64,000 bases of DNA from Dehalococcoidia bacterium (GTDB taxonomy: Bacteria > Chloroflexota > Dehalococcoidia > Bin125): positions 560,763 through 624,762 of the forward strand of contig OZ253471.1 in NCBI GenBank assembly GCA_965261715.1, read 5' to 3'. The notes under the pieces were generated by a model that was not told where the DNA came from, did not search any database, and was given only the letters and a program-made list of their open reading frames with translations. A program made the position numbers and the translations under genes. Within the stretch, counting starts at the first letter, position 1. Every line of letters starts with the position of its first letter. Of this stretch, positions 12,665 through 63,490 are shown one piece after another.

Positions 12665-13672
12665 ATGACTACCATGACCGATACTTCCGAACCAACCGAC
12701 AAATCAGATTTATCCGACTTGCCTGATCAACCGCTGCCCCCCGGCGACGATCTTGATGAAATAGCCAAAGCCGCGCGAGCCCTCGCGCAGCGCGGCGGCG
12801 ACATCCTGATGGACCGCTTCCACGCCACAATCGAGATCTCATTCAAGGGCCAGAACGCTCACGACCCCGTGACTGAGGTTGACCACGCGATCGAAGACAT
12901 GATCCGCGACGAGGTGCATCGCACGTTCCCTGAGCATGGAGTGCTCGGTGAAGAGCGAGACAACGGCGGTCCACTTGACGCCGAAATTGTGTGGGTGGTT
13001 GATCCGCTCGACGGCACAACCAACTTCATCAATGGCATCGGCCTGTTTGCATGTTCGATCGGGATTCTTCACAACGGGACGCCGATCGCGGGAGCGCTTT
13101 GGCTACCGACCAATCGGTTCCTGACTCCTGGCGTGTACCACTCCAAAACAGGATACGGTCTGATGTTCAATGGCGAACTGGTGGACTGCGGCGCGCCGGC
13201 GCTCCAGGCAGCCTCGCGATTGAGCACTGTGCCTGCCGGAACCGGCGGCGTGACTGGTCCTGCGGGGCGACGCTTCGGCATCGCCCGAACATTCGGCAGC
13301 ACAGCGACCGAGTTGGCGCTGGCGGCCGAGGGCTCAGTGCAGATGGCGTTGTTCGATGGCGCGCGGATCTGGGATGTCGCCGGTGGTGTTTCCTTATGCG
13401 TTGCTGCAGGAAGGGCCGTCTACACCAAGACGAGACGCAGCGAAGAACGTTGGCGACCGTTCACGCGGTTCTGCGACAGAATCGACGGTCCGCCCCACAT
13501 GGAGCAGCTACGCAAGTGGAGCGATCCGCTGGTTGCGGGCGACCCGTCGGTGCTGCCGGAATCGGCGACGGCGCTGAAGAAGGAGCAGAGCGTCGCGGCG
13601 ACCGCCAAGCGGGCGGCCGTCAAGAGCGTGAAGCGAGCCTTCCCGAATCTGCCGCTGCCGTCGTATCCCTAG
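12665..13672 (+). CDS. Inositol monophosphatase-family protein
   Basis: 335 aa with the metal-binding motifs 'WVVDPLDGTTNFINGIGLFA' and 'WDVAGG' characteristic of the IMPase/SuhB family. Confidence 0.8.
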   Translation: MTTMTDTSEPTDKSDLSDLPDQPLPPGDDLDEIAKAARALAQRGGDILMDRFHATIEISFKGQNAHDPVTEVDHAIEDMIRDEVHRTFPEHGVLGEERDNGGPLDAEIVWVVDPLDGTTNFINGIGLFACSIGILHNGTPIAGALWLPTNRFLTPGVYHSKTGYGLMFNGELVDCGAPALQAASRLSTVPAGTGGVTGPAGRRFGIARTFGSTATELALAAEGSVQMALFDGARIWDVAGGVSLCVAAGRAVYTKTRRSEERWRPFTRFCDRIDGPPHMEQLRKWSDPLVAGDPSVLPESATALKKEQSVAATAKRAAVKSVKRAFPNLPLPSYP

Positions 13673-13699
13673 CGCCGCGTTTCCGCTCAGAGAGCTCTT

Positions 13700-14040
13700 T
13701 GCGTAAGTCCCCTTCTCCCCCCTTGCGGGGGAGATGCCGAAGGCAGAGGGGGGGACTCCCCATCTCAATGCCTGTCTGGTCGCTGGCCGAGCCCCCCCTC
13801 TCTGTCACTCCGTGACAACTCCCCCCGCAAGGAGACCTTTGAATAAGTCCCCTTCGCCCCCCTTGCGGGGGAGATGCCGAAGGCAGAGGGGGGGCTCCCC
13901 ATCTCAAGGCCTATCTGGTCGCTGGCGGCGGACCCCCCCTGTCACTCCGTGACATCTCCCCCCGCAAGGGGGGGAGAGGGGAATCATGAGTTTTTCGAAG
14001 GTCTCCGCAAGGGGGGAGAGGGGATAGGCGAGTTTTGCAA
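13700..14040. repeat. GC-rich palindromic tandem repeat (140-bp unit, about 2.4 copies)
   Basis: The unit 'ccccttgcgggggagatgccgaaggcagaggggggg(a/c)tccccatctcaa...gtcactccgtgaca(a/t)ctccccccgcaagg...' is seen directly. Exact 140-bp spacing (13721 vs 13861). Contains perfect hairpins with GCAA/TTGC loops. Lies between convergent gene ends. Confidence 0.8.
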
Positions 14041-14048
14041 AGGCCTCT

Positions 14049-14972
14049 TCAGGCGTGGACGACCGGTAGGACCTCATCGAACAGGCGCTGGGACTGATAC
14101 ATGATCGCGTCGTCGCCGCGAGCTAGCGGCCGCATGATGAACTTGCTGACCCCAGCTTCGCGATATTCGTTGACTCTGCTCAGAATGTCCTCGGCGCTGC
14201 CGACAGCCAGGTAGGTGTCCGGGTTGATCTCGGGCAGTCGAGCCTTGATTCCGGCGATCTGCGCCTGCACATCGTGGTCGTCCCACGAGCCGAAGTGGTA
14301 GCCGAAGCCGGCGCCGAAGTGGTCTGGCTCATAGTCGGTGCGGCCCGCCTCAGCGAGCGCGGCCTTGATCTGGTCGATCACGGGCTTGACTTCGTGCGCC
14401 GACTGAATCCCCGCGACCCAACCGGTTCCGATCCGCGCGGTCCGGCGGATCGCCGCTTTGCTCGCGCCGCCGATCCAGAGCGGCAGCGGGTCCTGCACCG
14501 GTCGCGGCGAGATCGAGGCATTGTCGTATTGGAAATGCTCGCCGTGATAGGTGAACGATTCCTCGTTCCACAGTCCGTTGATGACGTCCAGCATCTCGTC
14601 GGCGATCGGGCCGCGACCGCGCATCGTACGGTTGGTCACTTTCCATTCCGGGGCGAACGCGCCACCCACGCCGAACGCCGGCAGCATGCGACCGTTGGAG
14701 AGAAAGTCAATCGTCGCGCACTGCTTGGCCAGCACCAGCGGGTCGCGGAAGCCGACGACGACGACGTTCATGCCAAACTTCAGCTTCTCGGTCCGCGCGG
14801 CCATCGCGGCCATGAAGGTCATCGACTCGAGCATCGGCTGGGTCGAGATCAGGCGGTCGGTTTGCCAGATCGAATCGACATTGTGCTCTTCGCAGAGGTC
14901 GATCCAGCGCCACATGGTGGCCACGTCGGAGAAGGGGAAGTTGGCCAGTCCCATTCCGATCCGGTCGCTCAT
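14049..14972 (-). CDS. LLM-class (luciferase-like) flavin-dependent oxidoreductase, probably F420-dependent
   Basis: 307 aa. The TIM-barrel LLM pattern is present (GMGLANFPF..., GRMLPAFGVGG, KFIMRP). Confidence 0.8.
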   Translation of the reverse strand: MSDRIGMGLANFPFSDVATMWRWIDLCEEHNVDSIWQTDRLISTQPMLESMTFMAAMAARTEKLKFGMNVVVVGFRDPLVLAKQCATIDFLSNGRMLPAFGVGGAFAPEWKVTNRTMRGRGPIADEMLDVINGLWNEESFTYHGEHFQYDNASISPRPVQDPLPLWIGGASKAAIRRTARIGTGWVAGIQSAHEVKPVIDQIKAALAEAGRTDYEPDHFGAGFGYHFGSWDDHDVQAQIAGIKARLPEINPDTYLAVGSAEDILSRVNEYREAGVSKFIMRPLARGDDAIMYQSQRLFDEVLPVVHA

Positions 14973-17034: not shown

Positions 17035-17943
17035 TTACCCGCCGACGACGTTGCCGGCTTCGATCGCGGGTCGGAAGACGCGTTCCATTTCCTCGGCAGC
17101 GCGTTCGACCGTCCACATCTCGGTGCCGCTCAATTCGCGGATCAATTTGTACTGGCTGTAGAGTCCGATGTCGTAGCCCATCGCACGGATGACCTGGCCG
17201 TTAAGCCAGTCCGACTGATCGGAAGCCATGTAGGCGATCGGAACCGCGACGTTGGCCGGTGAGCGGCGCGGGTCGACGATGGCCTCAGAGTCTTCGTCGA
17301 AGCCGCGGCTGCGCCGCTCCTCGGGCACCGTGTCGGTCATCCGCGTCGATGCGCCTGGGCCGATCGCGTTCGAGGTCACGCCGTAGCGTCCGAGTGCGTT
17401 GGCGCAGCTATAGGTGAAGCCAACGATGCCGAGCTTGGCCGCGGCGTAGTTGGGCTGACCAGGAGCGCCGTGCAAGCCCGAGCCGGACGTGAAGTTAATC
17501 AGCCGGTAGTGGCCCTCGCGGTTCGCGCGCCAGTAGATCGAGGCGTACTTCGTCGTGTTGAAGGTGCCCTTCATATGCACCGCGACGACGGCGTCCCATT
17601 CCGCTTCGGTCATGTTGAAGACCATGCGGTCGCGCAGGTTGCCGGCGACGTTGACCAGGATGTCCAGCCGACCATACTCATCCAGCGCTTGTTGGATGAT
17701 GCCTTCGGCTGCGTCGTAGTCGGCGACCGAGTTGTAGTTGGCGACGGCGTCGCCGCCGGCGTCGCGGATCGCTGCGACGGTTTCGTCGGACGGGCCGGCC
17801 TCGCCGCCCGTGCCGTCAACCGCTCCGCCGAGGTCGTTGACGACGACCTGGGCCCCGTTGGCGGCAAGCAGTTTGGCGACTTCCGAACCGATCCCGCGAC
17901 CGGCGCCGGTCACGATTGCGACACGATTGTCAAGCAATGCCAT
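17035..17943 (-). CDS. SDR-family oxidoreductase (MFE-2 dehydrogenase-like), paralog 1
   Basis: 302 aa with TGAGRGIG Rossmann motif and YxxxK catalytic motif (YAAAK). Confidence 0.85.
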   Translation of the reverse strand: MALLDNRVAIVTGAGRGIGSEVAKLLAANGAQVVVNDLGGAVDGTGGEAGPSDETVAAIRDAGGDAVANYNSVADYDAAEGIIQQALDEYGRLDILVNVAGNLRDRMVFNMTEAEWDAVVAVHMKGTFNTTKYASIYWRANREGHYRLINFTSGSGLHGAPGQPNYAAAKLGIVGFTYSCANALGRYGVTSNAIGPGASTRMTDTVPEERRSRGFDEDSEAIVDPRRSPANVAVPIAYMASDQSDWLNGQVIRAMGYDIGLYSQYKLIRELSGTEMWTVERAAEEMERVFRPAIEAGNVVGG

Positions 17944-17980: not shown

Positions 17981-18889
17981 CTAACCGAAGAATCCGCCGC
18001 CGCCTGCGACGGCCGGCTTGAACAGTTCTTCCATCTGCTCGCCCGCGCCTTCGACGCTCCAGCGCTCGGTGCCGCGCACCTGGCGAATCACGGCGGGCTT
18101 GTTGAAGAGCTGCAGCTCGTACCCTGAAGCGCCGATGATCTGACCGTTGAGCCAGTCCGACTGCTCGGAGGCCATGTAGACCAGCGGCACCGCGACGTTC
18201 GCTGGTGAGCGCTCCGGGTCTTCCTCGGTCGAGTCGCCGATGTCGCTGCCCGCGCGCCGTCGATCCTCGGGAACGGTGTCGGTCATACGGGTCGAGGCGC
18301 CCGGCGAGATCGCATTAGCGGTCGCGCCGTAGCGCGGCAGCGCGTTGGCGCAGCTATAGGTGAAGCCGACGATGCCCATCTTGGCCGCCGCGTAGTTGGG
18401 CTGGCCGGGTGCGCCGAAGATGCCGGAGACCGACGAGAAGTTGATCAGTCGGTAGTGACCCTTGCGCTCGGAGCGCCAGTGGATCGAGGCGTACTTGGCC
18501 AGGTTGAAGTGACCCTTCATGTGCACATCGACAACGGCGTCCCATTCCGCCTCGGTCATGTTGAAGACCATGCGGTCGCGCAGGATACCCGCCGTGTTGA
18601 CAACGATGTCGAGGTCGCCGAAGTTGTCCAGCGCATCCTTGACGATGCTCTCGGCGGCGTTGTAGTCGGCGACCGAGGCGTAGTTGGCGACGGCTTCGCC
18701 GCCTGCGTCGCGGATGGCCGCAACCACTTCATCGGCGGGCGCCGCAGCGCCGCCGGAACCGTCAACGGCGCCACCGAGGTCGTTGACCACGATCTTCGCG
18801 CCTTGTGAAGCAAACAGCTTGGCCGTCTCGGCCCCAATTCCACGTCCGGCGCCGGTGACAATCGCCACTCGGCCGTCAAGCATCCCCAT
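17981..18889 (-). CDS. SDR-family oxidoreductase, paralog 2 (tandem duplicate)
   Basis: 302 aa that can be aligned end-to-end with 17035..17943, about 70% identical by eye. Same TGAGRGIG and YAAAK motifs. Confidence 0.85.
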   Translation of the reverse strand: MGMLDGRVAIVTGAGRGIGAETAKLFASQGAKIVVNDLGGAVDGSGGAAAPADEVVAAIRDAGGEAVANYASVADYNAAESIVKDALDNFGDLDIVVNTAGILRDRMVFNMTEAEWDAVVDVHMKGHFNLAKYASIHWRSERKGHYRLINFSSVSGIFGAPGQPNYAAAKMGIVGFTYSCANALPRYGATANAISPGASTRMTDTVPEDRRRAGSDIGDSTEEDPERSPANVAVPLVYMASEQSDWLNGQIIGASGYELQLFNKPAVIRQVRGTERWSVEGAGEQMEELFKPAVAGGGGFFG

Positions 18890-19020
18890 GTGGTGTTCCT
18901 CTCAGCCCGCAGCGCTATTTATTGAAGCTCGCGGAAAAAATTCACAGGTGGGCACAGGTTACCATCGCGCGTTCGACTTCCCCCTTGGAGGCTGTCCAGG
19001 AAGTCGTCATACCTCAAATT

Positions 19021-19173
19021 CCGTCATACCCGCGCTCCGCCGCCGGTATCTCGCTGTGCTTGGCACGAAAGTCAGGAACCTGCTGTGAGATCGAATCGGG
19101 CGCAGTTCCTCGGATGCGAGCGTCGGTGCAGCACTCGGCGAGATTGCCGCGACGGAGCGCGGCAATGACGGAG
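19021..19173. mobile_element. MITE-like element, copy A (about 153 bp)
   Basis: Left end 'CCGTCATACCCGCGCTCCGCCGCCGGTATCTCGC' and right end '...GCGAGATTGCCGCGACGGAGCGCGGCAATGACGGAG' form imperfect terminal inverted repeats of about 34 bp, each itself containing a hairpin. Three more copies are in the window. Confidence 0.6.
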
Positions 19174-25565: not shown

Positions 25566-25661
25566 CGAACAAGCGCAGATTTGTCGGAACGTTGCCGAAC
25601 ATGTTCTGCTGAAAACCGAACAAAACCGAACAAAACCGAACAGAATCGAACGAATCTGAAC
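25566..25661 (+). repeat. Phased 10-bp direct-repeat array, (C)CGAACA unit, 8-9 copies
   Basis: 'cgaac' occurs at 25566, 25586 (ggaac), 25596, 25617, 25627, 25637, 25647 and 25657 (tgaac), a strict 10-bp period. The stretch is A/C-rich and G-poor and lies 41-136 nt upstream of the ATG at 25702. Confidence 0.7.
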
Positions 25662-41216: not shown

Positions 41217-42488
41217 ATGACGACGATGACGAGCGCGCTCGATCAGATCGATCTGGTCACGCCCGAGCTCTATGGACAGCGCGGCTATCCGTGGGAGGAC
41301 TGGGCGCTGTTGCGTCGCGAAGCGCCGATCTATTGGTACGACCGGCCCGACGTGACGCCATTCTGGGCAATCACCAAGTACGACGACATTCAGCACATCT
41401 CTCGCGATCCCGAGACCTTCATCAGCAGCAAGCGTCTGGTCATCCGCTCGGCGGGTTCGGGCGACGGCGGCGCTAATGATCCGTCGCTGACCGTCCCCAA
41501 CCTGATCAACATGGACCCACCCGAGCACGGCAAGTACCGCTCGGCGACCAATCGTCGGTTTTCGCCTCGCGGAATGCGATTGTTGGAGGACCGAATCGAT
41601 CAGATCGGCGAACAGGTAGTTGACGAGGCGGCCGCTCACCTGGTCAATCAACTGACTGACCGTCGCTCGGCCGACTTTGTCCGAGATGTCGCGGCCAAAA
41701 TGCCGATGGCGGCCATCTGCGAGCTACTCGCAGTCGAGCGCGATTCGTGGGAGGACATCTTCCGTTACACGAACGAGTTCCTGGGTTCGGAGGATCCTGA
41801 GTATCAGCAAGGTCGTACGCGTCGCGAGACGTGGCAAGCCGGGATGCGTGGCTTGCAGGTTTACTTCACGGAGCACATCGCTAGAAAGCGTCGCGAGCCG
41901 GATGACAGCGTGATGACCACGCTGGTGCAGGCGGAGATCGACGGCGAGCCGATTCCGGATCACGAGATCCTCTCGTACGCCGTCTTGCTGATCCTCGCCG
42001 GCAACGAAACGACGCGAAACGCGACCTCGGGCGGGCTGCAGGCGTTGATCGAGCATCCCGAGCAATATGAGCGACTTCGCGACCAGCCGGAGTTGCTCGA
42101 CAGCGCGGTCGAGGAAATGCTGCGCTGGACGTCGCCGGTCGTCCACTTCGCCCGGACCGTGACCAAGGACACCGAAGTGAGCGGCGTCCCGATGAAAGCC
42201 GGCGAGACGCTGGCCATGTGGTATCCGTCGGCCAACCGCGACGAGGACGTGTTCGAGAATCCGGACGACTTCGACATCGCACGGACGCCGAATGAGCACG
42301 TGGCCTTCGGTGGCTTCGGAGAGCACTTCTGCCTCGGGGCAAACCTGGCACGTCTGGAGATGCGTTCAGTCTTTCGCCACCTGATTCGACGAATGGACGA
42401 CTTCGAGATCGATGGAGAGGTCGAGCGGTTGTCGTCGGGGTTGATCGGTGGGATTAAGCGTCTGCCCGTGTCGTACTCGGTGCGCTAG
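41217..42488 (+). CDS. Cytochrome P450 (tandem paralog)
   Basis: 423 aa that can be aligned throughout with 39857..41134 (same FGGFGEHFCLGANLARLE loop, 'EEMLRW', 'ILAGNETT'). Confidence 0.9.
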   Translation: MTTMTSALDQIDLVTPELYGQRGYPWEDWALLRREAPIYWYDRPDVTPFWAITKYDDIQHISRDPETFISSKRLVIRSAGSGDGGANDPSLTVPNLINMDPPEHGKYRSATNRRFSPRGMRLLEDRIDQIGEQVVDEAAAHLVNQLTDRRSADFVRDVAAKMPMAAICELLAVERDSWEDIFRYTNEFLGSEDPEYQQGRTRRETWQAGMRGLQVYFTEHIARKRREPDDSVMTTLVQAEIDGEPIPDHEILSYAVLLILAGNETTRNATSGGLQALIEHPEQYERLRDQPELLDSAVEEMLRWTSPVVHFARTVTKDTEVSGVPMKAGETLAMWYPSANRDEDVFENPDDFDIARTPNEHVAFGGFGEHFCLGANLARLEMRSVFRHLIRRMDDFEIDGEVERLSSGLIGGIKRLPVSYSVR

Positions 42489-42496
42489 GAATCCTC

Positions 42497-42596
42497 TGAA
42501 TAACTGCCATCGGTAGCCGCTCGGGGACCCCCCCTTCAGCCTTCGGCAGCTTCCCCCGCAAGGGGGGAAGCGGGAATCAGAGTTATTCAGAGCATT
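42497..42596. repeat. Small palindromic GC-rich element (about 100 bp) with terminal inverted repeats
   Basis: Flanks 'tctgaataact...agttattcaga' are inverted repeats. Core 'cttcccccgcaaggggggaag' is a perfect GCAA-loop hairpin. Related to the 13700 and 45530 repeat family. Confidence 0.5.
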
Positions 42597-42813
42597 CCTA
42601 GTGGTTCAGTTCCGTCCTTTGCTAGAGAGCGCCGTGCGGGGTTTGGCTTCACGCACGACCACGGTTCCTGTTTGACAGCCTGAGAAGCCATACGTACGAT
42701 CGTGTTGCGCGCTGCGGGTGCGATGGTCGTGACTGTCGTCAGCCTGCGCAATTGAGTACCCCGTCATCCGGCGTAGCGCACAGGAGGACGGGGATTTTCT
42801 TTATGCGGAGGCG

Positions 42814-43368
42814 ACATGATTCAGCGCGTGTCGCTGTTCGTCGACCTACAGACTTTCTATCACGGTGCGCGTCGGGCGTTCCATCGAGACATTGTGTGCC
42901 AAATCGACTCCAGCCCCTCTTGCCGATGAGCGGTTGCTGAGTGAGGTACGCGTGTATCGCGGAACGCCTCGATTGGGTGCTCCTGGATACGACGCGGTTC
43001 AACGCCAGCATGCGAGTTGGACGAACGACGGAGTGACTGTCGTCACTCGTCCACTTCGCCATAGAAACTATCGGTGGGTCGAAAAAGGAATCGATGTTGA
43101 GCTTGCACTCGACATCGTCCTTGGTGGAGTTGAAGGCCGATTCGATGTTGGAATTATATGTTCGGCCGACACCGACATGCTTCCGGCAATAGAGAAGATT
43201 CAGCGGCGAACCGACCTGATTTCGGCCCGCGTCGAAGCAGCCAATTGGTGGAATCCGCCTGAGCTTCAATTCCAGCTTGGCAGCGAAGCAGGAATCTGGA
43301 CGCATCGGCTTGACTCGCAGGACTACGAAAAGGTGCGAGATCCTCGCAACTACACTCGCCGGCGATAG
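42814..43368 (+). pseudogene. NYN-domain paralog disrupted by a frameshift
   Basis: ATG 42814 encodes 'MIQRVSLFVDLQTFYHGARRAFH...' (aligns to the N-terminus of 37163..37975) and stops at about 42919. The remainder ('VRVYRGTP...EKGIDVELALDIV...IICSADTDMLPAIEK') continues in the +1 frame to 43368. Confidence 0.6.
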
Positions 43369-43402
43369 TGCCCAAATGTCTTAGGAACGATTGGGCATGC
43401 AG

Positions 43403-44170
43403 CTACAATGTTGCGCCGCCGTCGACGGTGATTGTTTGGCCTGTGACGAAGACGTTTCGCTCGATGAGCGCGACGATGGCGTCGGCGCAGGTTTCGGGTG
43501 TCGCGACGCCTCTGAGTGGCGCGGTCTCTCCGAGTCTTTTGCGGCCGGCTTCGTAGGTGTCTTCTCCCAGACCTCCTCGTAGCCAGCGACCTTCGATGAA
43601 ACCGGGCGCGATGGTGTTGATTCGGATTTCGGGGCCCAGGACTCGGGCCAGGGATTTCGTGATCACGTTGACGCCGGCCTTGCTCGCCGCGTAGGGGATG
43701 CTGGAGCCTCCGCCTCCCGCGCCGGCGACACTGCTGACGTTGACGACTGCTCCTTCTCCGGCAGCTCGCATATGCGGTGTTGCTGCTCGGGTGCAGTTGA
43801 AGACGCCTCGCAGATTGGCCCCGATGATGTCGTCCCAGACTTCGTCGGTGACGGCTTCGAGATCGTTGTGGGCGATGAAATGGGTCATGCCGGCGTTGTT
43901 GACCAGGATTTCGAGGTGCCCGAACTCGTCAACCGCGGACTGGATTAGCCGGCGACAGTCTGCGTCGGAGCGGACATCTGCCTGGACGGCGATCGCAGCG
44001 CCGCCGTTGGCCTGGATCTCATCGACGACAGCTTGCGCCGCGTCGGCGCCGTGCATGTAGTTGACGACGACCGACGCTCCCAGCGAGGCGAGCAGTTTGG
44101 CGGTTGCGGCTCCCACGCCCGATGATGATCCGGTGACGACTCCGACTTTGCGATTGATGTCCATGACCAA
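43403..44170 (-). CDS. SDR-family oxidoreductase (FabG-like)
   Basis: 'VGVVTGSSSGVGAATA' Rossmann motif, 'NNAG' motif and 'YAASKAG' catalytic motif. Confidence 0.85.
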   Translation of the reverse strand: MVMDINRKVGVVTGSSSGVGAATAKLLASLGASVVVNYMHGADAAQAVVDEIQANGGAAIAVQADVRSDADCRRLIQSAVDEFGHLEILVNNAGMTHFIAHNDLEAVTDEVWDDIIGANLRGVFNCTRAATPHMRAAGEGAVVNVSSVAGAGGGGSSIPYAASKAGVNVITKSLARVLGPEIRINTIAPGFIEGRWLRGGLGEDTYEAGRKRLGETAPLRGVATPETCADAIVALIERNVFVTGQTITVDGGATL

Positions 44171-44220
44171 CCCTTCAATTGCACATGCAAGAGGCCGCTC
44201 CCGAAGAAGCGGCCTCTCGT

Positions 44221-44280
44221 GATTTGCGGGCCCCCTCCGTCACTTCGTGACACCTCCCCCAGAGGGGGAGGTTTGAGATG
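44221..44280. repeat. Palindromic GC-rich element (single unit)
   Basis: 'gtcacttcgtgac' and 'cctcccccagagggggagg' perfect hairpins. Same architecture as the 13700 and 45530 repeats. Confidence 0.5.
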
Positions 44281-44282
44281 GT

Positions 44283-45482
44283 CTAGTCGCCGCCGCCGGC
44301 TGCTGCGGCTGCTGCGAGACCCTGGGGCATGACTTCGGGGATGTCGATGTTGTAGAGCTTGGCCGAGTTCCCCCAGAGAATCTTGCGGCGAACCTCTTCC
44401 GACTGCCCTTCGAGGCCGTCTTCGATCGTCTCCTGCACGTTGCCGTAGAGGCAGGTCGGGTGCGGGAAGTCGGTCTCGAAGAGGATGTTGTCTTCGCCGA
44501 TGTCTTCGATCAGCTTGCGCGGGGCAATCTTCTCGAACCAGTAGCAGGCGGAGACCTGTCGGCGGAAGTAGTCCGACGGCATCATTTCGAACTCGGGGCG
44601 GGCCTTGCGCACGTCGGCGGCGAGGAAGTGGTAGTCGCAGCTTTCGAGGACGAACGGCACCCAGCCGATGCCGGACTCGACCGAGATGAACCTCAGCTCG
44701 GGGAATCGCGGCAGCACACCGGAGAGCAGCAGGTCGGTCAACTGCAGGCCGTTGGCCATGAAGAGGACGGTCGAGGTGCGGGCGTAGGTGACCTCCGGGC
44801 CGTCAACAGCGAGCCGGTCGGGCGTGAAGCCGTCGGTGAAGTCGCCGGAGCCGATGTGGAACGAGATTGGCAGGCCGGTGTCGGTCGCGATGTTCCACAG
44901 CGGATCCCAATGGTGGTCGCCGAGGAAGGGCTGGCCGTGCGACTGCGGGTCGCCGGTGAAGAGGATGCCGCGCATGCCCTTCTGGGCGACGCGCTCAATC
45001 TCCTTGACCGACTCCTCAATGTCCCAGAAGGGGATCGAGGCGTTGGCGACGAAGCGCTCTGGCGCGACGGAGATCCAGTCGATCTGGAAGTCATTCCAGG
45101 CGCGGACGCACTCAAACATCAGCTCGGGGTCCTTGAGCGAGAGGAATCGCTGCGAGGCAAAGCCGGCAACGTTCGGGTAGAGGACCTGCGCATAGACGCC
45201 GGTCTCGTCCATCAGCTTGATTCGCTCGTGGATGTCGAACGAGGCGGGGTGAGCTTCTTCGTAGGTCGGCGGCGAGCTGGGGAACTTGCCTTTCCAACCC
45301 GCGAAGACGCCGGAGGGCGCGGCCGCCACCTTCTCATCAGCGACGAACCAGGAGTTGATCCCCTTGTCGTCCTGCTTGACGTGCAACACCCGGTCGCCCC
45401 ACTTGGAGGAGACTCGGGACGTCCAAAGGTCGGCAGGTTCGGTGATATGGGTGTCGGCGTCGATAAATGTCTGGAACGCCAT
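44283..45482 (-). CDS. Amidohydrolase-2 family metal-dependent hydrolase/decarboxylase
   Basis: 399 aa. 'FIDADTHITEP' N-terminal metal-binding HxH-type motif and the TIM-barrel amidohydrolase pattern (ACMSD-like). Confidence 0.75.
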   Translation of the reverse strand: MAFQTFIDADTHITEPADLWTSRVSSKWGDRVLHVKQDDKGINSWFVADEKVAAAPSGVFAGWKGKFPSSPPTYEEAHPASFDIHERIKLMDETGVYAQVLYPNVAGFASQRFLSLKDPELMFECVRAWNDFQIDWISVAPERFVANASIPFWDIEESVKEIERVAQKGMRGILFTGDPQSHGQPFLGDHHWDPLWNIATDTGLPISFHIGSGDFTDGFTPDRLAVDGPEVTYARTSTVLFMANGLQLTDLLLSGVLPRFPELRFISVESGIGWVPFVLESCDYHFLAADVRKARPEFEMMPSDYFRRQVSACYWFEKIAPRKLIEDIGEDNILFETDFPHPTCLYGNVQETIEDGLEGQSEEVRRKILWGNSAKLYNIDIPEVMPQGLAAAAAAGGGD

Positions 45483-45529
45483 GCGAACTCCTTCGGATCA
45501 AGGCGCGAATCTGGATTGTGAACAGTGTA

Positions 45530-45956
45530 ACGACAGAGACAGTTCCTCGCTCCCCCTGCATGGAGACCTTTGCGTAACTCCTCTTCTCCGCTCTCGCGGA
45601 GACTTGCGCGTAAATCCCCTTCTCCCCCCTTGCGAAGACCTTTGAAAACTCCCCTTTGCCCCCCTTGCGGGGGAGATGCCGTAGGCAGAGGGGGGGCTCC
45701 CCATCCCCTGGCCTATCTAGTCGCTGTGCGCGGACCCCCCCTCTGTCACTCCGTGACATCTCCCCCCGCAAGGGGGGGAGAGGGGATTCGGGAGTTTTGC
45801 AAAGGTCTCCTTGCAGGGGAGATGCCGTAGGCAGAGGGGGGGCTCCCCATCCCCTGGCCTATCTAGTCGCTGTGCGCGGACCCCCCCTCTGTCACTCCGT
45901 GACATCTCCCCCCGCAAGGGGGGGAGAGGGGATTCGGGAGTCTTGCAAGGGTCTCC
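45530..45956. repeat. GC-rich palindromic tandem repeat (about 157-bp unit, about 2.5 copies)
   Basis: 'gagatgccgtaggcagagggggggctccccatcccctggcctatctagtcgctgtgcgcggaccccccctctgtcactccgtgacatctccccccgcaagggggggagaggggattcgggag' is repeated with a 157-bp period (45662 vs 45819). Same family as 13700..14040. Confidence 0.8.
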
Positions 45957-47666
45957 CTATGGAATCACCGGTTCGCCCGAGACGGCCTTGATGATGTCGA
46001 AATAGCTGATTACGACGATGAAGATCAGCAGCGCCGCGAAGCCCGCCATGTGGACCAGGCCCTCGCGCTCGGGGCTGATGCGCTTGCCGCGCCGGGCGAT
46101 CTCGATGAGCACGAACATGATCCGGCCGCCGTCGAGCATCGGTAGCGGCAGGATGTTGATGATTGCGAGGTTGAGCGAGATCAGGGCGGCCAACTCGATC
46201 AGGCGCGACCATCCAGCACGGTCGACGACCTCGCCGGTGACTCGGGCAATGCCGACCGGACCGGAGAGTTCGATCGGTTCACCACCGGCGATCCAGGAGC
46301 GGATGCGGTTGCGCACGAGGACGAACGTGTCGCGCGTTTGCGTCCATCCGGCGCTGACCGATTCTCCGAACGATGGACTGTCGCGGGCGGTGAGTCGCGA
46401 GGCGTTGGCGATGCTGATGCCGGTCGCTCCCTGGGGGACAGAGACTTTGAGACCCGGAGGCGGGAAGACCGGGTCGATGTCGAGCGCCGCATAGACGGCA
46501 GCCATGCGGACCGACTCTTCGATCGCGATGCTCAGCATCGTGTCGCCTTCCTCGGTGACGTACGTGACTCCACCGGGAAGGGCGAGCTCGATGCCCGCCC
46601 TGAGTTCCTCGGTCTCGATGCCCCAGGCGGCAATCACCGAGGAAGGTGGAACACCGAGGTTGTCGGAAATGTCGTGGACGGAGTCTCCCGGTTGGACGAC
46701 ATGAGTAAGCGGCTCGGGAGCGAGACGGGCGTGGACCGTGACGTCGAAGCGTTCTGACTCTCTCGACGCGCGGCTCGCCGTTAATGACGCGGCGGGTGGC
46801 CGTTCGATCGAGACCACCAGTTCTTCGCCCAGGTTCAACTGAATGGCTCGCGAGAGATCGCCGGCGTTCTGAATTGGATCGCCGTTGATCGCCACAATGC
46901 GGTCGCCGGCGCGAATGCCGGCCTGATGCGCCGGCGCTTGCTCGATGGTGCTGGTCACCAGCGCTGGACCGACCGAGACGTTGTCGGGAATCAGTGCGCC
47001 GACCGTGAACAGGATGATCGGCAAGACGGCATTGACGCCCGCGCCGGCGGCGAGGATGCCGATCCGCGTAAGACGCGACTTCGCTCCGAGCGATCGTGGA
47101 TCGATGCCAACGGTCAGTCCAAGGATTGAGGCTTCCCCATTGTCCTCAAGCAGAGACTTCCGATGCTCAGCCGTGGTTTTGTAGTTTTGTCGCGGCGGCG
47201 CATTCGTTTCATCGTCGCGCGGAGCCATGCTGAAGGTCCACGAGGTTTTGCGTCCGTCAGCCTCGTTGTGGTCGTACGAGATCTCCAGCTTGGGCTCACC
47301 GAAATTGCGGAGCACCTGTTCCAGGAACTGATCGGGGCTGACCACACGCTTGCCATTGATCTTGTGGATGCGGTCACCCGGGGCGAAGTGCTCGATCAGT
47401 CGGCTCTCGGGATCGACCTTGGTGATCAGCAGGCCTGATGCTTCCTCGCCGGTCAGCCGGACGAATCCGCCGATCGGCAACCAGTTCAAGGAGTAGACCG
47501 TCTCGCCAAATTGCCATCCCTTGCCAATCCGAGGCGGCAATCCGACACCAAACTCCTCGACGCGAACGCCGGCCAGTTTGGCGGCGACGAAGTGACCAAG
47601 CTCATGCAGGACCACGAGTCCAAGCAGTACGCCAATGAACGGGAGGACCGTGTTGATCAGGACCAT
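45957..47666 (-). CDS. rseP: RseP-like M50 site-2 zinc metalloprotease with PDZ domains
   Basis: 'VVLHELGHFVAAK' HExxH motif near the N-terminus, internal PDZ-like regions and C-terminal TM helices. Sits immediately downstream of dxr as in many bacteria. Confidence 0.85.
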   Translation of the reverse strand: MVLINTVLPFIGVLLGLVVLHELGHFVAAKLAGVRVEEFGVGLPPRIGKGWQFGETVYSLNWLPIGGFVRLTGEEASGLLITKVDPESRLIEHFAPGDRIHKINGKRVVSPDQFLEQVLRNFGEPKLEISYDHNEADGRKTSWTFSMAPRDDETNAPPRQNYKTTAEHRKSLLEDNGEASILGLTVGIDPRSLGAKSRLTRIGILAAGAGVNAVLPIILFTVGALIPDNVSVGPALVTSTIEQAPAHQAGIRAGDRIVAINGDPIQNAGDLSRAIQLNLGEELVVSIERPPAASLTASRASRESERFDVTVHARLAPEPLTHVVQPGDSVHDISDNLGVPPSSVIAAWGIETEELRAGIELALPGGVTYVTEEGDTMLSIAIEESVRMAAVYAALDIDPVFPPPGLKVSVPQGATGISIANASRLTARDSPSFGESVSAGWTQTRDTFVLVRNRIRSWIAGGEPIELSGPVGIARVTGEVVDRAGWSRLIELAALISLNLAIINILPLPMLDGGRIMFVLIEIARRGKRISPEREGLVHMAGFAALLIFIVVISYFDIIKAVSGEPVIP

Positions 47667-47837
47667 ACGCTCAGCGTACTAGTGGATGTCGTAGAGCGAT
47701 TGCTAGGGAAATCGAGGCTTGTATCGGAGTGAGAACGGGGACGGAGTATTTCGCCTATATCCTGTCGAGGCCTGACGGCGAACCTGTAGGGGCGTCCGTT
47801 GTGAAGGTGTCTCAGATGTCTCGCAACCCTCCGATTC

Positions 47838-47989
47838 CGTCATTCCCGCGCTCCGTCGCGGGAATCTCGCCGAGTGCTGCACCGGCGCACGAACCTCGGG
47901 AACCTCGCTCGCTTCCATCGCTCTGTCGGTTCCTGACTTTCGCGCCGAGCGCAGCGAGATACCCGCGGCGGAGCGCGGGTATGACGGAG
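47838..47989. mobile_element. MITE-like element, copy B (about 152 bp)
   Basis: 'CCGTCATTCCCGCGCTCCGTCGCGGGAATCTCGCCGAG...GCGAGATACCCGCGGCGGAGCGCGGGTATGACGGAG'. Both termini contain perfect 7-8 bp hairpins. The internal segment is inverted relative to copy A. Confidence 0.6.
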
Positions 47990-48030
47990 GTAGAGACTCT
48001 GCGACTGGAGTGAGCAGCCAGCCAGCACGG

Positions 48031-54273: not shown

Positions 54274-54738
54274 ATGAGGATCGTGTTGCAGCGCGTGACA
54301 CAGGCGTCAGTGTCCGTCGACGGCGAAATCGTCGGCGCCATTGATCGCGGTCTGTTGATTCTGGTCGGGGTCGCCGAGGGCGACGAAGGGGCGCAAGCCG
54401 AAGCGCTGGCCCGGAAGGTGGCGGGCCTGCGGATCTTCGCGGACGGAGAGGGTCGCTTCAACGAGAGCCTCCTGGACATCCGTGGTTCGGCACTGGTCGT
54501 CAGCCAGTTCACACTCCACGCGGACGTGCGCAAAGGCCGGCGTCCGAGCTTCACCGGGGCGGCGCGACCAGAAGCTGCGGAGCCGCTGGTTGATTACTTC
54601 GCGGGGTCGCTGCGAGAGCAGGGAGTCCCGGTCGAGACTGGCGTGTTTGGCGCGATGATGTCGGTGGCGCTCGTCAACGACGGACCGTTCACCGTCGTGA
54701 TTGATTCGGCTGATCTTGAGCGACCGCGTCGCAGCTAA
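54274..54738 (+). CDS. dtd: D-aminoacyl-tRNA deacylase
   Basis: '[17 protein letters not shown]...LLILVGV...SQFTLHAD...GPFT' is the Dtd signature (SQFTL, NDGPFT). Confidence 0.9.
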
Positions 54739-54746
54739 CTCGATTC

Positions 54747-54899
54747 CCGTCATTCCCGCGCTCCGCCGCGGGAATCTCGCCGAGTTCTGCACTCCACGTC
54801 CATCAGGCGCCCAACCTTCCAGCCACAATCATCCAGCCGCCAAGCGGCATCCGAGTTGCTTGCAGCGAGATACCCGCGGCAAGCGCGGGTATGACGGAG
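54747..54899. mobile_element. MITE-like element, copy C (about 153 bp)
   Basis: 'CCGTCATTCCCGCGCTCCGCCGCGGGAATCTCGCCGAG...GCGAGATACCCGCGGCAAGCGCGGGTATGACGGAG' lying between the dtd stop and the nadC stop. Confidence 0.6.
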
Positions 54900-60839: not shown

Positions 60840-60929
60840 TGGCGGAGGGTGAGGGATTCGAACCCTCGACGGAGTTTCCCCCGAACCCGCTTAGCAGGCG
60901 GGCGCACTAGGCCACTATGCGAACCCTCC
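60840..60929 (-). tRNA. tRNA-Ser (anticodon GCT)
   Basis: Reverse complement folds as a cloverleaf: GGAGGGT acceptor, GG in the D-loop, anticodon stem CCCGC/GCGGG with loop CTGCTAA (GCT), long variable arm, GGTTCGAATCC T-arm, encoded CCA. 90 nt. Confidence 0.85.
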
Positions 60930-61984: not shown

Positions 61985-62009
61985 ACGGGTGTCTCAGATC
62001 TGCAAGATT

Positions 62010-62160
62010 CGTCATTCCCGCGCCCTGTCGCGGGAATCTCGACGAGTCCGGCGCCGACGCTCGAACCTGAGGAACCGCGCCCGTTTCAATCGCTCAGCCG
62101 ACTCCTGGCTTTCGTGACGAGCACTGCGAGATACTCGCGGCGGAGCGCGGGTATGACGGA
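62010..62160. mobile_element. MITE-like element, copy D (about 151 bp)
   Basis: 'CGTCATTCCCGCGCCCTGTCGCGGGAATCTCGACGAG...GCGAGATACTCGCGGCGGAGCGCGGGTATGACGGAG'. Confidence 0.6.
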
Positions 62161-62282
62161 GATCGATATCGGGCGGCCTTTAAGACGCTTTCAAGATCGC
62201 AATGCCGTCTTGCTGATTCGATCGCCCAGGCGCCCGTAGAGCCGGATTGCTCCAGCGTGTTCGCCGACCACGTCAAGCGTGA

Positions 62283-63431: not shown

Positions 63432-63490
63432 CGTTCGGGAGTGTTCGGTCTTGTTCGGGTTTGTTCGGATTTGTTCGATGCTGTTCGAAC
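63432..63490 (-). repeat. Phased 10-bp direct-repeat array, (C)CGAACA unit in sucD sense, 6 copies
   Basis: 'gttcg' occurs at 63432, 63442, 63452, 63462, 63472 and 63482 (exact 10-bp period). In sucD sense this reads ...UCGAACAGCA UCGAACAAAU CCGAACAAAC CCGAACAAGA CCGAACACUC CCGAACGAGG AACCGGCGC AUG. Confidence 0.7.

What the first reader, a model, noticed from the sequence alone, without database searches (positions are those of the whole stretch)
13700..14040. Second dispersed repeat family: GC-rich palindromic tandem units with GNRA-loop hairpins
A 140-bp unit is tandemly repeated about 2.4 times at 13700-14040. A closely related 157-bp unit is repeated about 2.5 times at 45530-45956. Single related units sit at 42497-42596 (flanked by TCTGAATAACT/AGTTATTCAGA inverted repeats) and 44221-44280.

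Every unit carries the same nested perfect hairpins: GTCAC-TCC-GTGAC; TCTCCCCCC-GCAA-GGGGGGAGA (GCAA is a GNRA tetraloop); CCCC-TTGC-GGGG; and GGGGAG...CTCCCC.

All four loci lie at gene ends (convergent or tail-to-head). They could therefore act as bidirectional U-tract-less terminators or mRNA-stabilising REP-like elements. They are unrelated in sequence to the MITE family above.
Basis: seen in the sequence. Interest (0 to 1): 0.55.

Follow-up and report, generated by a model that had tools for sequence, protein, structure and literature searches.

The report
Nested MITEs carrying triplex-type hairpin modules
The "tandem GC-rich repeats" are copies of a ~177-bp non-coding mobile element with IS5-type ends that have inserted into each other's hairpin loops. 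Each copy carries two hairpin modules of the kind known to fold single-stranded DNA into a triple helix, so this is an unusual variant of known selfish DNA, not a demonstrated terminator.

Summary
The repeats are real and confined to four gene-end spacers, but they are not simple tandem repeats.

**Structure.** At 13687-14052 and 45550-45956, full-length ~177-nt elements sit inside the 4-nt apical loop of a hairpin of another copy, with that loop duplicated (GCAA, TTGC). The periods are 140 and 146 nt, not 157.

**Mobility.**
- Each element has 20-bp terminal inverted repeats (GGAGACCTTTGMAAAACTCC) and short target duplications.
- Four relatives have an empty site of 9-14 nt where the window has 376 nt.
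- The same ends flank an IS5-family transposase gene: an intact-length IS in a metagenome contig, and a truncated copy in the closest relative.
- I conclude it is an IS5-type MITE.

**Cargo.** Each element carries two inverted ~45-nt modules: C-rich arm, loop, G-rich arm, small GNA-loop hairpin, then a mirrored G-rich block. The three-way covariation obeys purine-motif triplet rules. This matches BoxC/PIT/TM intrastrand DNA triplex motifs (Holder 2015), except that a hairpin replaces the short second loop. Modules of this design occur in repeats of many phyla.

**Function.** The terminator or mRNA-stabiliser idea is untested. There is no U tract, and published work found no terminator activity for PIT motifs. 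Targeting of hairpin loops is enough to explain why the elements lie at gene ends.

The parts
13687..13690 (.). Left copy of the 4-bp target duplication TCAG of the outer element u1.
   Evidence: TCAG occurs at 13687 and 14049. The empty site in relatives has this sequence once, as CTGA on the other strand.
13691..13830 (+). Outer MITE copy u1, left 140 nt: left terminal inverted repeat AGAGCTCTTTGCGTAAGTCC, left module, spacer, and the right module up to its GCAA loop.
   Evidence: Joined to 14011-14048 it gives a 180-nt element that aligns end to end with other copies.
13714..13754 (+). Triplex-type module, class II order on the + strand: TCTCCCCCC / TTGC / GGGGGAGA / T / GCC-GAA-GGC / A / GAGGGGGGG.
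   Evidence: Coordinates. Architecture and triplet statistics.
13792..13830 (-). The part of u1's right module left of the insertion (class II order on the - strand): mirrored C-block, hairpin GTCAC-TCC-GTGAC, C-rich arm ACTCCCCCC and loop GCAA. Its G-rich arm lies at 14011-14019, beyond the nested insertion.
   Evidence: The mirror block has decayed in this copy (extra CT).
13827..13830 (.). Left copy of the target duplication GCAA, which is the hairpin loop hit by u2.
   Evidence: GCAA occurs at 13827 and 14007, flanking 13831-14006.
13831..14006 (+). Nested MITE copy u2 (176 nt), complete, running GGAGACCTTTGAAT...CGAAGGTCTCC. It contains modules 13854-13894 (+) and 13933-13977 (-).
   Evidence: nhmmer match over model positions 1-178, 195 bits. 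It is 93% identical to the copy in L118 but only 84% identical to its neighbour u1.
14007..14010 (.). Right copy of the target duplication GCAA.
14011..14048 (+). Outer copy u1, right 38 nt: G-rich arm GGGGGGAGA followed by the right terminal inverted repeat, ...GAGTTTTGCAAAGGCCTCT.
14049..14052 (.). Right copy of the target duplication TCAG. It overlaps the stop codon (TCA, which reads TGA on the - strand) of the luciferase-like oxidoreductase gene 14049..14972.
42485..42601 (+). A different composite element. A ~21-bp outer inverted repeat (CTAGGAATCCTCTGAATAACT / AGAGTTATTCAGAGCATTCCTAG) encloses one triplex-type module at 42528-42576: CCCCCTTCA / GCC-TTC-GGC / A / GCTTCCCCC / GCAA / GGGGGAAGC.
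   Evidence: The TT change is present in all three blocks. No upstream Watson-Crick partner for the mirror block is seen.
44231..44272 (-). Single module: CCCCCTCC / GTCAC-TTC-GTGAC / A / CCTCCCCC / AGA / GGGGGAGG(T). The class II order lies on the - strand, which is the mRNA-sense strand here.
   Evidence: It is kept at the orthologous site in L118 and L119. L119 shows the compensatory change GTCAC/GTGAC to GTCGC/GCGAC. All 8 triplets are canonical.
45550..45597 (+). Remnants of older copies: C-rich arm plus loop CTCCCCCTGCAT (45550-45561), and a 36-nt left end GGAGACCTTTGCGTAACTCCTCTTCTCCGCTCTCGC (45562-45597). Their right-hand partners are missing.
45598..45633 (+). Outer MITE copy B, left 36 nt: terminal repeat GGAGACTTGCGCGTAAATCC, C-rich arm and loop TTGC. 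The loop (45630-45633) is the left copy of the target duplication.
   Evidence: This arm is nearly identical to the left end of the truncated IS5-type element in L118.
45634..45810 (+). Nested MITE copy A (177 nt), complete, with modules 45656-45696 (+) and 45735-45781 (-).
   Evidence: nhmmer match over model positions 3-177, 192 bits, with TTGC on both sides. In its right module 9 of 9 triplets are canonical.
45811..45814 (.). Right copy of the target duplication TTGC.
45815..45956 (+). Outer copy B, right 142 nt: the rest of its left module (45815-45842), the spacer, right module 45881-45927 (-), and the right terminal repeat. It ends at GGTCTCC directly against the stop codon (CTA, which reads TAG on the - strand) of the M50 peptidase gene 45957..47666.

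Best explanation
The finding is a family of ~177-bp non-autonomous transposable elements (MITEs) in a Chloroflexota genome, probably of class Dehalococcoidia.

**Anatomy.** Each element is a long imperfect palindrome made of:
- 20-bp terminal inverted repeats of IS5 type;
- two inverted ~45-nt modules;
- a ~35-nt unique spacer.

**Mobilisation (inferred).** An IS5-family DDE transposase that recognises the terminal repeats moves the elements in trans. Insertion leaves a short target duplication: 4 bp where it can be read unambiguously, up to 6 bp where the ends are ambiguous.

**Target preference (shown).** More than half of the copies whose two ends can be read sit in the apical loop of a C-rich/G-rich hairpin.

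**Self-nesting.** Every element carries two such hairpins, so copies insert into each other. That produces the pseudo-tandem arrays at 13687-14052 and 45550-45956. Recombination between nested copies then reshapes the arrays.

**The module (shown as sequence pattern).** It has the signature of a class II purine-motif intrastrand DNA triplex, the BoxC/PIT/TM type. The order is C-rich arm, loop, complementary G-rich arm, then a second G-rich block that mirrors the first. The difference is that the short second loop is replaced by a small hairpin with a GNA or GNNA loop.

**The fold (inferred).** It would form only on transiently single-stranded DNA, and it may be what attracts the transposase. 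No host function is required to explain the gene-end location.
For: **MITE features**
- The elements are 176-180 nt long.
- The 20-nt terminal repeats co-vary between two subfamilies: 16.4 and 14.5 of 20 matches within a subfamily, 11.8-12.6 across.
- Direct repeats flank the window copies: TCAG, GCAA and TTGC.
- Direct repeats also flank copies in other genomes: L031 TCGC, L047 TTGG, L046, L058b and L076.

**Insertion polymorphism**
- The convergent spacer is 9-14 nt in four relatives whose oxidoreductase is 88-95% identical, against 376 nt in the window. The junction is clean: CTGA|CCGAAAACGCGGCG becomes CTGA[363 nt]CTGAgCGGAAACGCGGCG.
- The spacer after the M50 gene is 474 nt in the window, 293 nt in L118 and 82 nt (empty) in L119. 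The window and L118 differ by 181 nt, which equals 177 + 4.

**Link to a transposase**
- The same 20-mer ends a 1228-bp element in L144. That element encodes DUF772 + DDE_Tnp_1 and matches NCBIfam NF033581 'IS5 family transposase' at 200 bits (cut-off 140).
- The closest relative, L118, holds a truncated IS5-type gene (DUF772, 74 bits) between the same arms. It sits in a TTGC hairpin loop with TTGC duplicated.

**Loop targeting**
- Insertions lie in loops of CTCCCCC...GGGGGAG-type hairpins in W u2, W A, L020, L031, L046, L047, L058b, L076, the L118 IS, L133/L161, L156 and L127/L153.
- In L076 the host hairpin belongs to a single module of another type.

**Triplex signature**
- 90.6% of triplet positions are G.G-C, A.A-T, T.A-T or T.C-G in register, against 53-70% when slid. 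At the level of sequence types the value is 0.832 against 0.734 +/- 0.008 for shuffles.
- A mirrored purine block lies 3' of the G-rich arm 209 times. Controls give 30, 7 and 1.
- 166 of 200 long linkers are flush hairpins.
- There are 61 different hairpin cores, and 44 of them have GNA or GNNA loops on the G-rich strand.
- Holder 2015 showed by CD and NMR that the short-loop version forms a stable DNA triplex.
Against: - The window contains no transposase with these ends. An intact partner in this genome is therefore not shown.
- The target-duplication length is ambiguous (4-6 bp), because the element ends (GG...CC) resemble the target.
- Some copies lack clear duplications: L062, L003 and L006.
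- Remnants 45550-45597 have no right-hand partners.
- The best alignment of L118 to the window removes the two halves of copy B rather than copy A. Recombination or gene conversion, not only insertion, therefore shapes the arrays.
- Triplex folding is inferred from sequence only.
- For the known short-loop motif, in vivo DMS footprinting did not detect a stable triplex.
- Older copies (u1, u2) have decayed mirror blocks. Selection on the fold in this genome is therefore weak.
- The gene context relies on my own GC3-based gene caller.
Confidence: 0.75

Rival explanations
1. REP-like RNA elements. Transcribed into mRNA 3' ends, the stable hairpins terminate transcription without a U tract or block 3' exonucleases. 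Selection for that role keeps them at gene ends.
For: - All four loci are at gene 3' ends.
- Modules are 5 times denser in convergent than in divergent spacers.
- Both strands fold very stably.
- Single modules in Chloroflexota co-directional spacers lean to one orientation, 18 vs 4.
Against: - The scan found no terminator-like site (no U-rich tail) in the elements.
- Overall orientation is unbiased, 48 vs 40. The 18 vs 4 count may come from incomplete detection of the second half of dimers.
- Close relatives have only a 9-14 nt spacer at the same gene pair, without the insert.
- The GNA-loop and purine-motif signatures belong to DNA. Holder 2015 states that purine-motif triplexes do not form in RNA and that PIT motifs had no terminator activity.
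- Mirror blocks decay in older copies.
Confidence: 0.12
2. Local tandem amplification. The arrays arose by replication slippage or unequal crossing-over of 140/146-nt and 36-nt units, as in BIME-like clusters, and not by insertion of one element into another.
For: - TRF reports a 146-nt period with 2.0 copies at 97%, and a 36-nt array.
- The L118-window difference aligns best as loss or gain of both halves of copy B.
- Remnants without partners lie at 45550-45597.
Against: - Both outer copies reconstruct to full length once the inner copy and one 4-nt loop are removed.
- u2 is closer to a copy at another locus (93%) than to its neighbour u1 (84%).
- The same element sits in loops of unrelated hairpin types in other genomes, with duplicated loop bases.
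- A transposase-bearing relative sits in the same kind of loop with TTGC duplicated.
- The size difference of 181 nt equals 177 + 4.
Confidence: 0.08
3. A REPIN/RAYT-type system. Inverted pairs of REP-like hairpins are moved as single-stranded DNA by a domesticated IS200/IS605-like Y1 (HUH) transposase.
For: - The elements are inverted dimers of hairpin modules separated by a spacer.
- The signatures point to single-stranded DNA.
Against: - There is no GTAG or CGTC tag.
- The elements have terminal inverted repeats and target duplications, and the associated transposase is of the IS5 DDE type. Y1 transposases make no target duplication (my own knowledge).
- No Y1 gene was looked for genome-wide.
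Confidence: 0.03
4. A structured non-coding RNA gene family.
For: The fold is strong, with invariant core positions across 16 copies.
Against: - No Rfam family matches at curated thresholds in the window or in 18 loci. Below them only generic weak sub-threshold matches appear, mostly to long hairpins such as miRNA precursors.
- Both strands fold equally well.
- The copies are nested, carry target duplications, and are absent from close relatives.
- The alignment fold shows almost no compensatory change in the core.
Confidence: 0.02

Closest known systems
BoxC / PIT (potential intrastrand triplex) / TM_ECO motifs: class II purine-motif intrastrand DNA triplexes (Hoyne et al. 2000; Holder et al. 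2015, PMC4666352)
   Same: - Same block order on one strand: C-rich arm, loop, complementary G-rich arm, then a mirrored G-rich block. The triplets are G.G-C, A.A-T and T.A-T.
- Both are intergenic, multi-copy and often palindromic dimers, and both lie in regions that vary between close relatives.
- A genuine short-loop BoxC-like copy (CCCTCTCCC TCT GGGAGAGGG TTA GGGTGAGGG) occupies an orthologous spacer in relative L121.
   Different: - The second loop is a 9-17 nt hairpin with a GNA or GNNA loop, not 1-6 nt. The published finders (loops of at most 6 or 10 nt) would miss it.
- The block sequence differs: TCTCCCCCC/GGGGGGAGA rather than CCCTCNCCC/GGGNGAGGG.
- TM_ECO was reported from 262 proteobacterial genomes. 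This design appears here in Chloroflexota, Clostridia, Negativicutes, Bifidobacterium, Riflebacteria and a Paceibacteria MAG, as well as in Alphaproteobacteria.
- Here the modules are the cargo of a MITE. Holder et al. found no link between TM_ECO and mobile elements.
IS5-family insertion sequences and their MITEs
   Same: - 20-bp terminal inverted repeats identical to those of a 1228-bp IS that encodes an NF033581 IS5-family transposase.
- A short (about 4 bp) target duplication.
- Many MITEs of 68-221 nt share the same ends but carry unrelated cargo.
   Different: - The target is not the YTAR/CTAG-type sequence that I recall for IS5 itself (my own knowledge). It is mostly the apical loop of C-rich/G-rich hairpins.
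- The cargo is a pair of triplex-type modules.
Insertion sequences that target REP/BIME palindromes (IS1397, ISKpn1, ISRm22, ISPpu9/10; Tobes & Pareja 2006, PMC1525189)
   Same: Insertion is specific to intergenic palindromic repeats. For ISRm22 it falls exactly at the palindrome axis and leaves direct repeats.
   Different: In the window and in most other copies the inserting element is a MITE. Its target hairpin is also part of the MITE, so the family nests into itself. That paper lists IS5 among five REP-targeting families, but not this lineage or this target.
BIMEs of E. coli and RIMEs of rhizobia (mosaic intergenic repeat clusters)
   Same: They are mosaics of palindromic units in alternating orientation at gene ends, and their copy number varies.
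   Different: Here the mosaic is explained by nested transposition with target duplications. The units are triplex-type modules rather than GTAG-tagged REPs. I did not compare sequences with RIME1 or RIME2.

Membership tests
MITE (non-autonomous derivative of a DDE transposon) | Short (tens to a few hundred bp) and without a transposase gene | tested here: met
   The elements are 176-180 nt. tblastn finds no match to the IS5-type (L144) transposase in the window.
MITE (non-autonomous derivative of a DDE transposon) | Terminal inverted repeats | tested here: met
   The ends are 20 nt, with 15-18 of 20 matching within a copy. They co-vary between two subfamilies.
MITE (non-autonomous derivative of a DDE transposon) | Target-site duplication | tested here: met
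   TCAG, GCAA and TTGC flank the window copies. TCGC, TTGG, TTGC, TGCG and TGCA flank copies elsewhere. The length is ambiguous, 4-6 bp.
MITE (non-autonomous derivative of a DDE transposon) | Presence/absence polymorphism at orthologous sites | tested here: met
   Empty sites occur in L122-L125 (9-14 nt against 376 nt) and in L119 (82 nt against 474 nt).
MITE (non-autonomous derivative of a DDE transposon) | Ends shared with an autonomous element that encodes a transposase | tested here: met
   L144 holds a 1228-bp IS with the same 20-mer and an IS5-family transposase. L118 holds a truncated copy. An intact partner in the window's own genome was not found.
MITE (non-autonomous derivative of a DDE transposon) | Mobilisation in trans by the transposase | not testable with these tools
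   This needs a transposition assay.
Class II intrastrand triplex motif (BoxC/PIT/TM) | Three blocks on one strand in the order pyrimidine arm, purine arm, second purine block | tested here: met
   A mirrored block lies 3' of the purine arm 209 times, against 1 on the 5' side.
Class II intrastrand triplex motif (BoxC/PIT/TM) | The third block is antiparallel to the purine arm and obeys G.G-C, A.A-T and T.A-T | tested here: met
   90.6% of positions are canonical in register, against 53-70% when slid. At the position next to the hairpin the counts are A.A-T 83, T.C-G 34 and G.G-C 23. That T.C-G counts as an accepted triplet is my own recollection.
Class II intrastrand triplex motif (BoxC/PIT/TM) | Short loops (1-6 nt in ITxF; 0-10 nt in Hoyne et al.) | tested here: not met
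   The second linker is 10-18 nt, peaking at 14, and 166 of 200 are flush hairpins. This limit is a search setting, not a physical requirement.
Class II intrastrand triplex motif (BoxC/PIT/TM) | TM_ECO consensus CCCTCNCCC N3-6 GGGNGAGGG N3 GGGNGAGGG | tested here: not met
   The window modules are TCTCCCCCC..GGGGGAGA..GAGGGGGGG. The consensus form is seen only in relatives (L121, L106, L112).
Class II intrastrand triplex motif (BoxC/PIT/TM) | Triplex formation by the isolated strand | not testable with these tools
   ViennaRNA does not model triplexes. This needs CD, NMR or melting experiments.
REP / REPIN-RAYT | GTAG or CGTC tag at the foot of the palindrome | tested here: not met
   No such tag is seen at the foot of the hairpins in the sequences. 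The tag definition is from PMC3733652.
REP / REPIN-RAYT | Association with a Y1 (IS200/IS605-like) transposase gene | not tested
   No genome-wide search was possible. The transposase found between these arms is of the IS5 DDE type.
Intrinsic (Rho-independent) terminator | GC-rich hairpin followed by a U-rich tract | tested here: not met
   There are 0 sites in 13400-14300 and none inside the elements in 42300-46200.
Any Rfam RNA family | A match at the family's gathering score | tested here: not met
   The window yields only one tRNA elsewhere. The 18 loci yield nothing on the modules. The permissive search gives only matches far below gathering scores, mostly to long hairpins such as miRNA precursors.

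The most novel reading that the evidence does not exclude
Triplex-type hairpins (BoxC/PIT motifs and the hairpin-bridged form described here) are structure-specific landing pads for a lineage of IS5-family transposases and their MITEs.

When extruded or single-stranded, the C-rich/G-rich hairpin, stabilised by the mirrored G block, presents its loop to the transposase. MITEs that carry such hairpins therefore create their own targets and nest.

This would give a mechanism for the unexplained 'genomic instability' around triplex motifs reported in E. coli. It would also help explain why one module design recurs across bacterial phyla.
Probability: 0.3. Interest if true: 0.7.

Novelty: new variant of a known kind. 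Interest (0 to 1): 0.5.

Why it matters
- **Annotation.** Apparent GC-rich "tandem repeats" in Chloroflexota spacers are nested MITEs. This matters for genome annotation, for assembling MAGs across such arrays, and for avoiding spurious small ORFs.
- **Scope of triplex motifs.** Intrastrand-triplex motifs now include a hairpin-bridged form that published finders cannot see, and it occurs well beyond Proteobacteria.
- **A testable link.** The function of these motifs has stayed unknown since the 1990s; Holder et al. 2015 later linked them to local genome variability. Here they are the preferred insertion point of an IS5-type element family, which can be tested directly.
- **Limits.** If the link fails, the finding is still a clean example of self-targeting selfish DNA. 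It is not a new regulatory system.

Tried and rejected
- **Rfam.** Searches at curated and permissive thresholds on the window and 18 loci found nothing relevant.
- **Literature by sequence words.** Nothing relevant turned up. A search on RIME and Rhizobium gave no sequence to compare.
- **GTAG/CGTC REP super-families.** The tags are absent.
- **Exact-protein look-up of a flanking gene.** It is not on record, so I used homologues instead.
- **Pyrimidine-motif triplex on the C-rich strand (RNA-capable).** I considered this first. It needs odd A.C-G and A.A-T triplets and long runs of protonated C. The complementary purine-motif reading makes every recurrent variant canonical.
- **Watson-Crick partner for the mirror block.** An upstream AGAGGGGGG exists in dimers but is missing in many single modules. 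It cannot explain the mirror rule (locus 3).
- **Orientation relative to transcription.** Inconclusive.
- **Alignment fold of 16 copies.** The core is nearly invariant, so it offers no covariation test.
- **Looser regular expression for modules.** It found only one module and was dropped.
- **Transposase with these ends inside the window.** None found.
- **Orientation relative to replication.** Could not be tested with 8-kb fragments.
Full report
**1. Observation**

The window is 62.7% G+C. Four intergenic spacers carry related GC-rich palindromic sequence:

| Spacer | Flanking genes |
|---|---|
| 13673-14048 | convergent inositol-monophosphatase-family and luciferase-like oxidoreductase genes |
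| 42489-42864 | P450 gene end to NYN-domain gene start |
| 44171-44282 | amidohydrolase end to short-chain dehydrogenase start, - strand |
| 45483-45956 | M50 peptidase end to amidohydrolase start, - strand |

- Both strands of the two large spacers fold with z-scores from -7.8 to -9.1 against dinucleotide shuffles.
- The periods are 140 and 146 nt, not 157, and a 36-nt array lies at 45562-45670.
- No Rfam family matches.
- The scan finds no terminator-like site in the elements.

**2. The arrays are nested insertions**

An HMM of the unit finds complete copies of 176-178 nt bounded by GGAGACC...GGTCTCC.

- *Locus 1.* The complete copy 13831-14006 is flanked on both sides by GCAA. The sequence to its left ends in ACTCCCCCC-GCAA, and the sequence to its right starts GCAA-GGGGGGAGA. 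The copy therefore lies in the 4-nt loop of a hairpin belonging to another copy.
- *Locus 2.* Copy 45634-45810 lies in a TTGC loop in the same way.
- *Reconstruction.* Removing the inner copy and one loop copy gives outer elements of 180 and 179 nt. These align end to end with the others.
- *Outer element at locus 1.* It is itself flanked by TCAG, and the second TCAG overlaps the stop codon of the oxidoreductase gene.
- *Similarity.* The inner copy u2 is 93% identical to a copy at another locus of a relative but only 84% identical to its neighbour. This argues against local duplication.

**3. Mobility**

Homologues of two flanking proteins gave orthologous loci.

- *Convergent spacer.* In four relatives whose oxidoreductase is 88-95% identical it is only 9-14 nt. 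In L122 it reads ...gcCTGA|CCGAAAACGCGGCG|cta. The window has CTGA, then 363 nt of elements, then CTGA again, then gCGGAAACGCGGCG.
- *Spacer after the M50 gene.*

| Source | Length | Content |
|---|---|---|
| window | 474 nt | two nested copies plus remnants |
| L118 (96% protein identity) | 293 nt | one copy |
| L119 (92%) | 82 nt | empty |
| L120, L121 | 240 nt | an unrelated MITE family |

- The window and L118 differ by 181 nt, which equals 177 + 4. However, the best alignment removes the two halves of the outer copy rather than the inner one. Recombination or gene conversion between nested copies must also occur.
- The single module at 44231-44272 is retained in L118 and L119. L119 carries a compensatory change in the small hairpin, GTCAC/GTGAC to GTCGC/GCGAC.

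**4. Ends and transposase**

- The 20-nt ends are inverted repeats. Two subfamilies (GGAGACCTTTGMAAAACTCC and RGAGACYGATGCRCAACTCC) each keep their own two ends alike.
- A metagenome scan with the first 20-mer returned 36 loci.
  - The same end closes MITEs of 68, 71, 118, 123-124, 178-181 and 221 nt with unrelated cargo.
  - It also closes a 1228-bp element in L144. Its frameshifted gene encodes DUF772 + DDE_Tnp_1 and matches NCBIfam NF033581 'IS5 family transposase' at 200 bits, cut-off 140.
- In the closest relative, L118, a truncated IS5-type gene (DUF772, 74 bits) lies between the same arms. It sits inside a TTGC hairpin loop of a MITE with TTGC duplicated.
- The window itself holds no such transposase.
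- The duplications read as 4 bp where unambiguous. Because the element ends in GG...CC and the target loop is flanked by C and G runs, up to 6 bp can be read.

**5. Target**

- At least eleven independent insertions lie in the loop of a C-rich/G-rich hairpin: window u2 and A, L020, L031, L046, L047, L058b, L076, the L118 IS, L133/L161, L156 and L127/L153. In L076 the host is a single module of another sequence type.
- Other insertions do not: window u1 at a stop codon, L058a, L062, L144, L134, L151 and L158.
- Insertion of IS elements at the axis of intergenic palindromes is known for IS1397, ISKpn1, ISRm22 and others (PMC1525189).

**6. The module**

By my own estimate under uniform base composition, chance would give about 0.5. 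The loci came from Chloroflexota, Rhizobiaceae and other Alphaproteobacteria, Clostridia, Negativicutes, Bifidobacterium, Riflebacteria and a Paceibacteria MAG.

A structural search asked only for a small hairpin next to a pyrimidine arm, a loop and a complementary purine arm. It returned 223 modules.

- In nearly all of them, the 9 nt on the other side of the small hairpin, which the search did not constrain, are the mirror image of the pyrimidine arm.
- This holds across many variants: TCT|TCT, TCC|CCT, TCA|GCT, TTC|CTT, TTCC|CCTT, TTCA|GCTT, TCTCC|CCTCT, TCATCC|CCTTCT and TTT|TTT. Several variants span more than one phylum.

Read on the G-rich strand, the order is C-rich arm, loop, G-rich arm, T, small hairpin, mirrored G-rich block.

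- 90.6% of positions are G.G-C, A.A-T, T.A-T or T.C-G in register, against 53-70% when slid.
- At the level of sequence types the value is 0.832, against 0.734 +/- 0.008 when mirror blocks are shuffled among types.
- In a test that did not presuppose the small hairpin, a fully canonical mirrored block lies 3' of the purine arm 209 times. Control arrangements give 30, 7 and 1.
- The linker length peaks at 14 nt, and 166 of 200 long linkers are flush hairpins.
- The small hairpin has 61 different cores. On the G-rich strand 28 have GNA loops and 16 have GNNA loops, mostly closed by C-G. From my own knowledge, that is the type of exceptionally stable DNA mini-hairpin.

**7. What is known**

- Holder et al. 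2015 (PMC4666352), following Hoyne et al. 2000, describe BoxC = PIT = TM_ECO: 5'-CCCTCNCCC N3-6 GGGNGAGGG N3 GGGNGAGGG.
- It is a class II purine-motif intrastrand triplex and is stable in vitro by CD and NMR.
- It is always intergenic, shows no strand bias, and has no promoter or terminator activity.
- A stable triplex was not detectable by DMS footprinting in vivo.
- It is associated with variable genome regions.
- The authors state that purine-motif triplexes do not form in RNA.
- Their finder allows loops of 1-6 nt and Hoyne's allowed 0-10 nt, so the hairpin-bridged form here would be missed.
- Short-loop copies also occur in my sample (L121, L106, L112).

**8. Higher-order arrangement**

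- In Chloroflexota, Caulobacter, Hoeflea and Clostridia, paired modules face each other with their mirror blocks.
- In Rhizobiaceae they face each other with their purine arms.
- The module is therefore the common unit, and the composite elements differ between groups.
- Modules are denser in convergent spacers (2.0 per kb) than in co-directional (1.36) or divergent (0.40) spacers. They show no overall sense bias, 48 vs 40 (my own gene caller).

**9. Interpretation**

*Shown:*
- a MITE with IS5-type ends, target duplications and empty sites;
- nesting in hairpin loops;
- a module whose three blocks co-vary as a purine-motif triplex requires.

*Inferred:*
- mobilisation by an IS5-family transposase of the same lineage;
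- recognition of the extruded or single-stranded hairpin;
- actual triplex folding;
- neutrality for the host.

Older copies have decayed mirror blocks while the youngest are perfect. This fits selfish spread better than host selection. The terminator or mRNA-stabiliser reading remains possible as a side effect, but nothing supports it.

**10. Organism**

- The best protein relatives are labelled Chloroflexota or Chloroflexi MAGs.
- One relative at 82% identity lies on a contig the same length as the Dehalococcoidia chromosome OZ241375.1.
- Near-identical elements occur in Dehalococcoidia MAGs, in L020 and L047.

**11. Unexplained**

- The motif CCTATCTGGTC is conserved in the otherwise variable spacer.
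- The very same small hairpin, GTCAC-TYC-GTGAC, recurs in many phyla. It may reflect a small sequence space under the structural rules, or horizontal spread.
- Remnants 45550-45597 have no right-hand partners.

Noticed in passing
window 19010-19066, 47826-47994, 54736-54792, 61998-62166; also L120 and L121 spacers: A second MITE-like family of about 170-180 nt has sub-terminal hairpins CGTCATTCCCGCG...CGCGGGAATCTCG. The same family fills the orthologous M50-to-amidohydrolase and amidohydrolase-to-dehydrogenase spacers in relatives L120 and L121. These gene-end spacers are therefore insertion hot spots for several families.
   Followed up: partly
L126-L161 (metagenome contigs): The 20-nt arm GGAGACCTTTGNAAAACTCC closes MITEs of 68-221 nt with unrelated cargo. 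The cargo includes CGTCATTCCGGCGAAAGCCGGAAT hairpins that resemble the window's other MITE family. The same arm closes a 1228-bp IS5-family element in L144.
   Followed up: partly
L118:2100-2890: A truncated IS5-type element lies in a MITE hairpin loop. Beside it, a run of about 30 C at 2128-2155 extends the C-rich arm. This may be a real tract expansion or a long-read artefact.
   Followed up: no
L121:6228-6262 (orthologue of window 44171-44282): A classical short-loop BoxC-like motif, CCCTCTCCC TCT GGGAGAGGG TTA GGGTGAGGG, sits where the window has its hairpin-bridged single module.
   Followed up: partly
window 25612-25651 and 63433-63477: Two 10-nt tandem arrays, AAAACCGAAC x4 and GTTCGGGATT x4.5, are roughly reverse complements of each other. 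They might be repeated binding sites.
   Followed up: no
window 17296-17595 vs 18242-18541: A 300-nt direct repeat at 79% identity, spaced 946 nt apart, with further matching blocks. It most likely marks tandem paralogous genes.
   Followed up: no
window 42865-43368: A NYN-domain gene lies beside the repeats in the window and in L118. It is absent from the same neighbourhood in L119 (which has a GmrSD-like gene instead) and in L121. This is a variable region next to the elements.
   Followed up: no
window 60843-60929 (-): A tRNA gene, the only Rfam match at curated thresholds in the window.
   Followed up: no
alignment A1, columns ~80-92 (e.g. window 13908-13918, 45712-45722): The motif CCTATCTGGTC is conserved in both MITE subfamilies inside the otherwise variable central spacer. 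It is unexplained.
   Followed up: no
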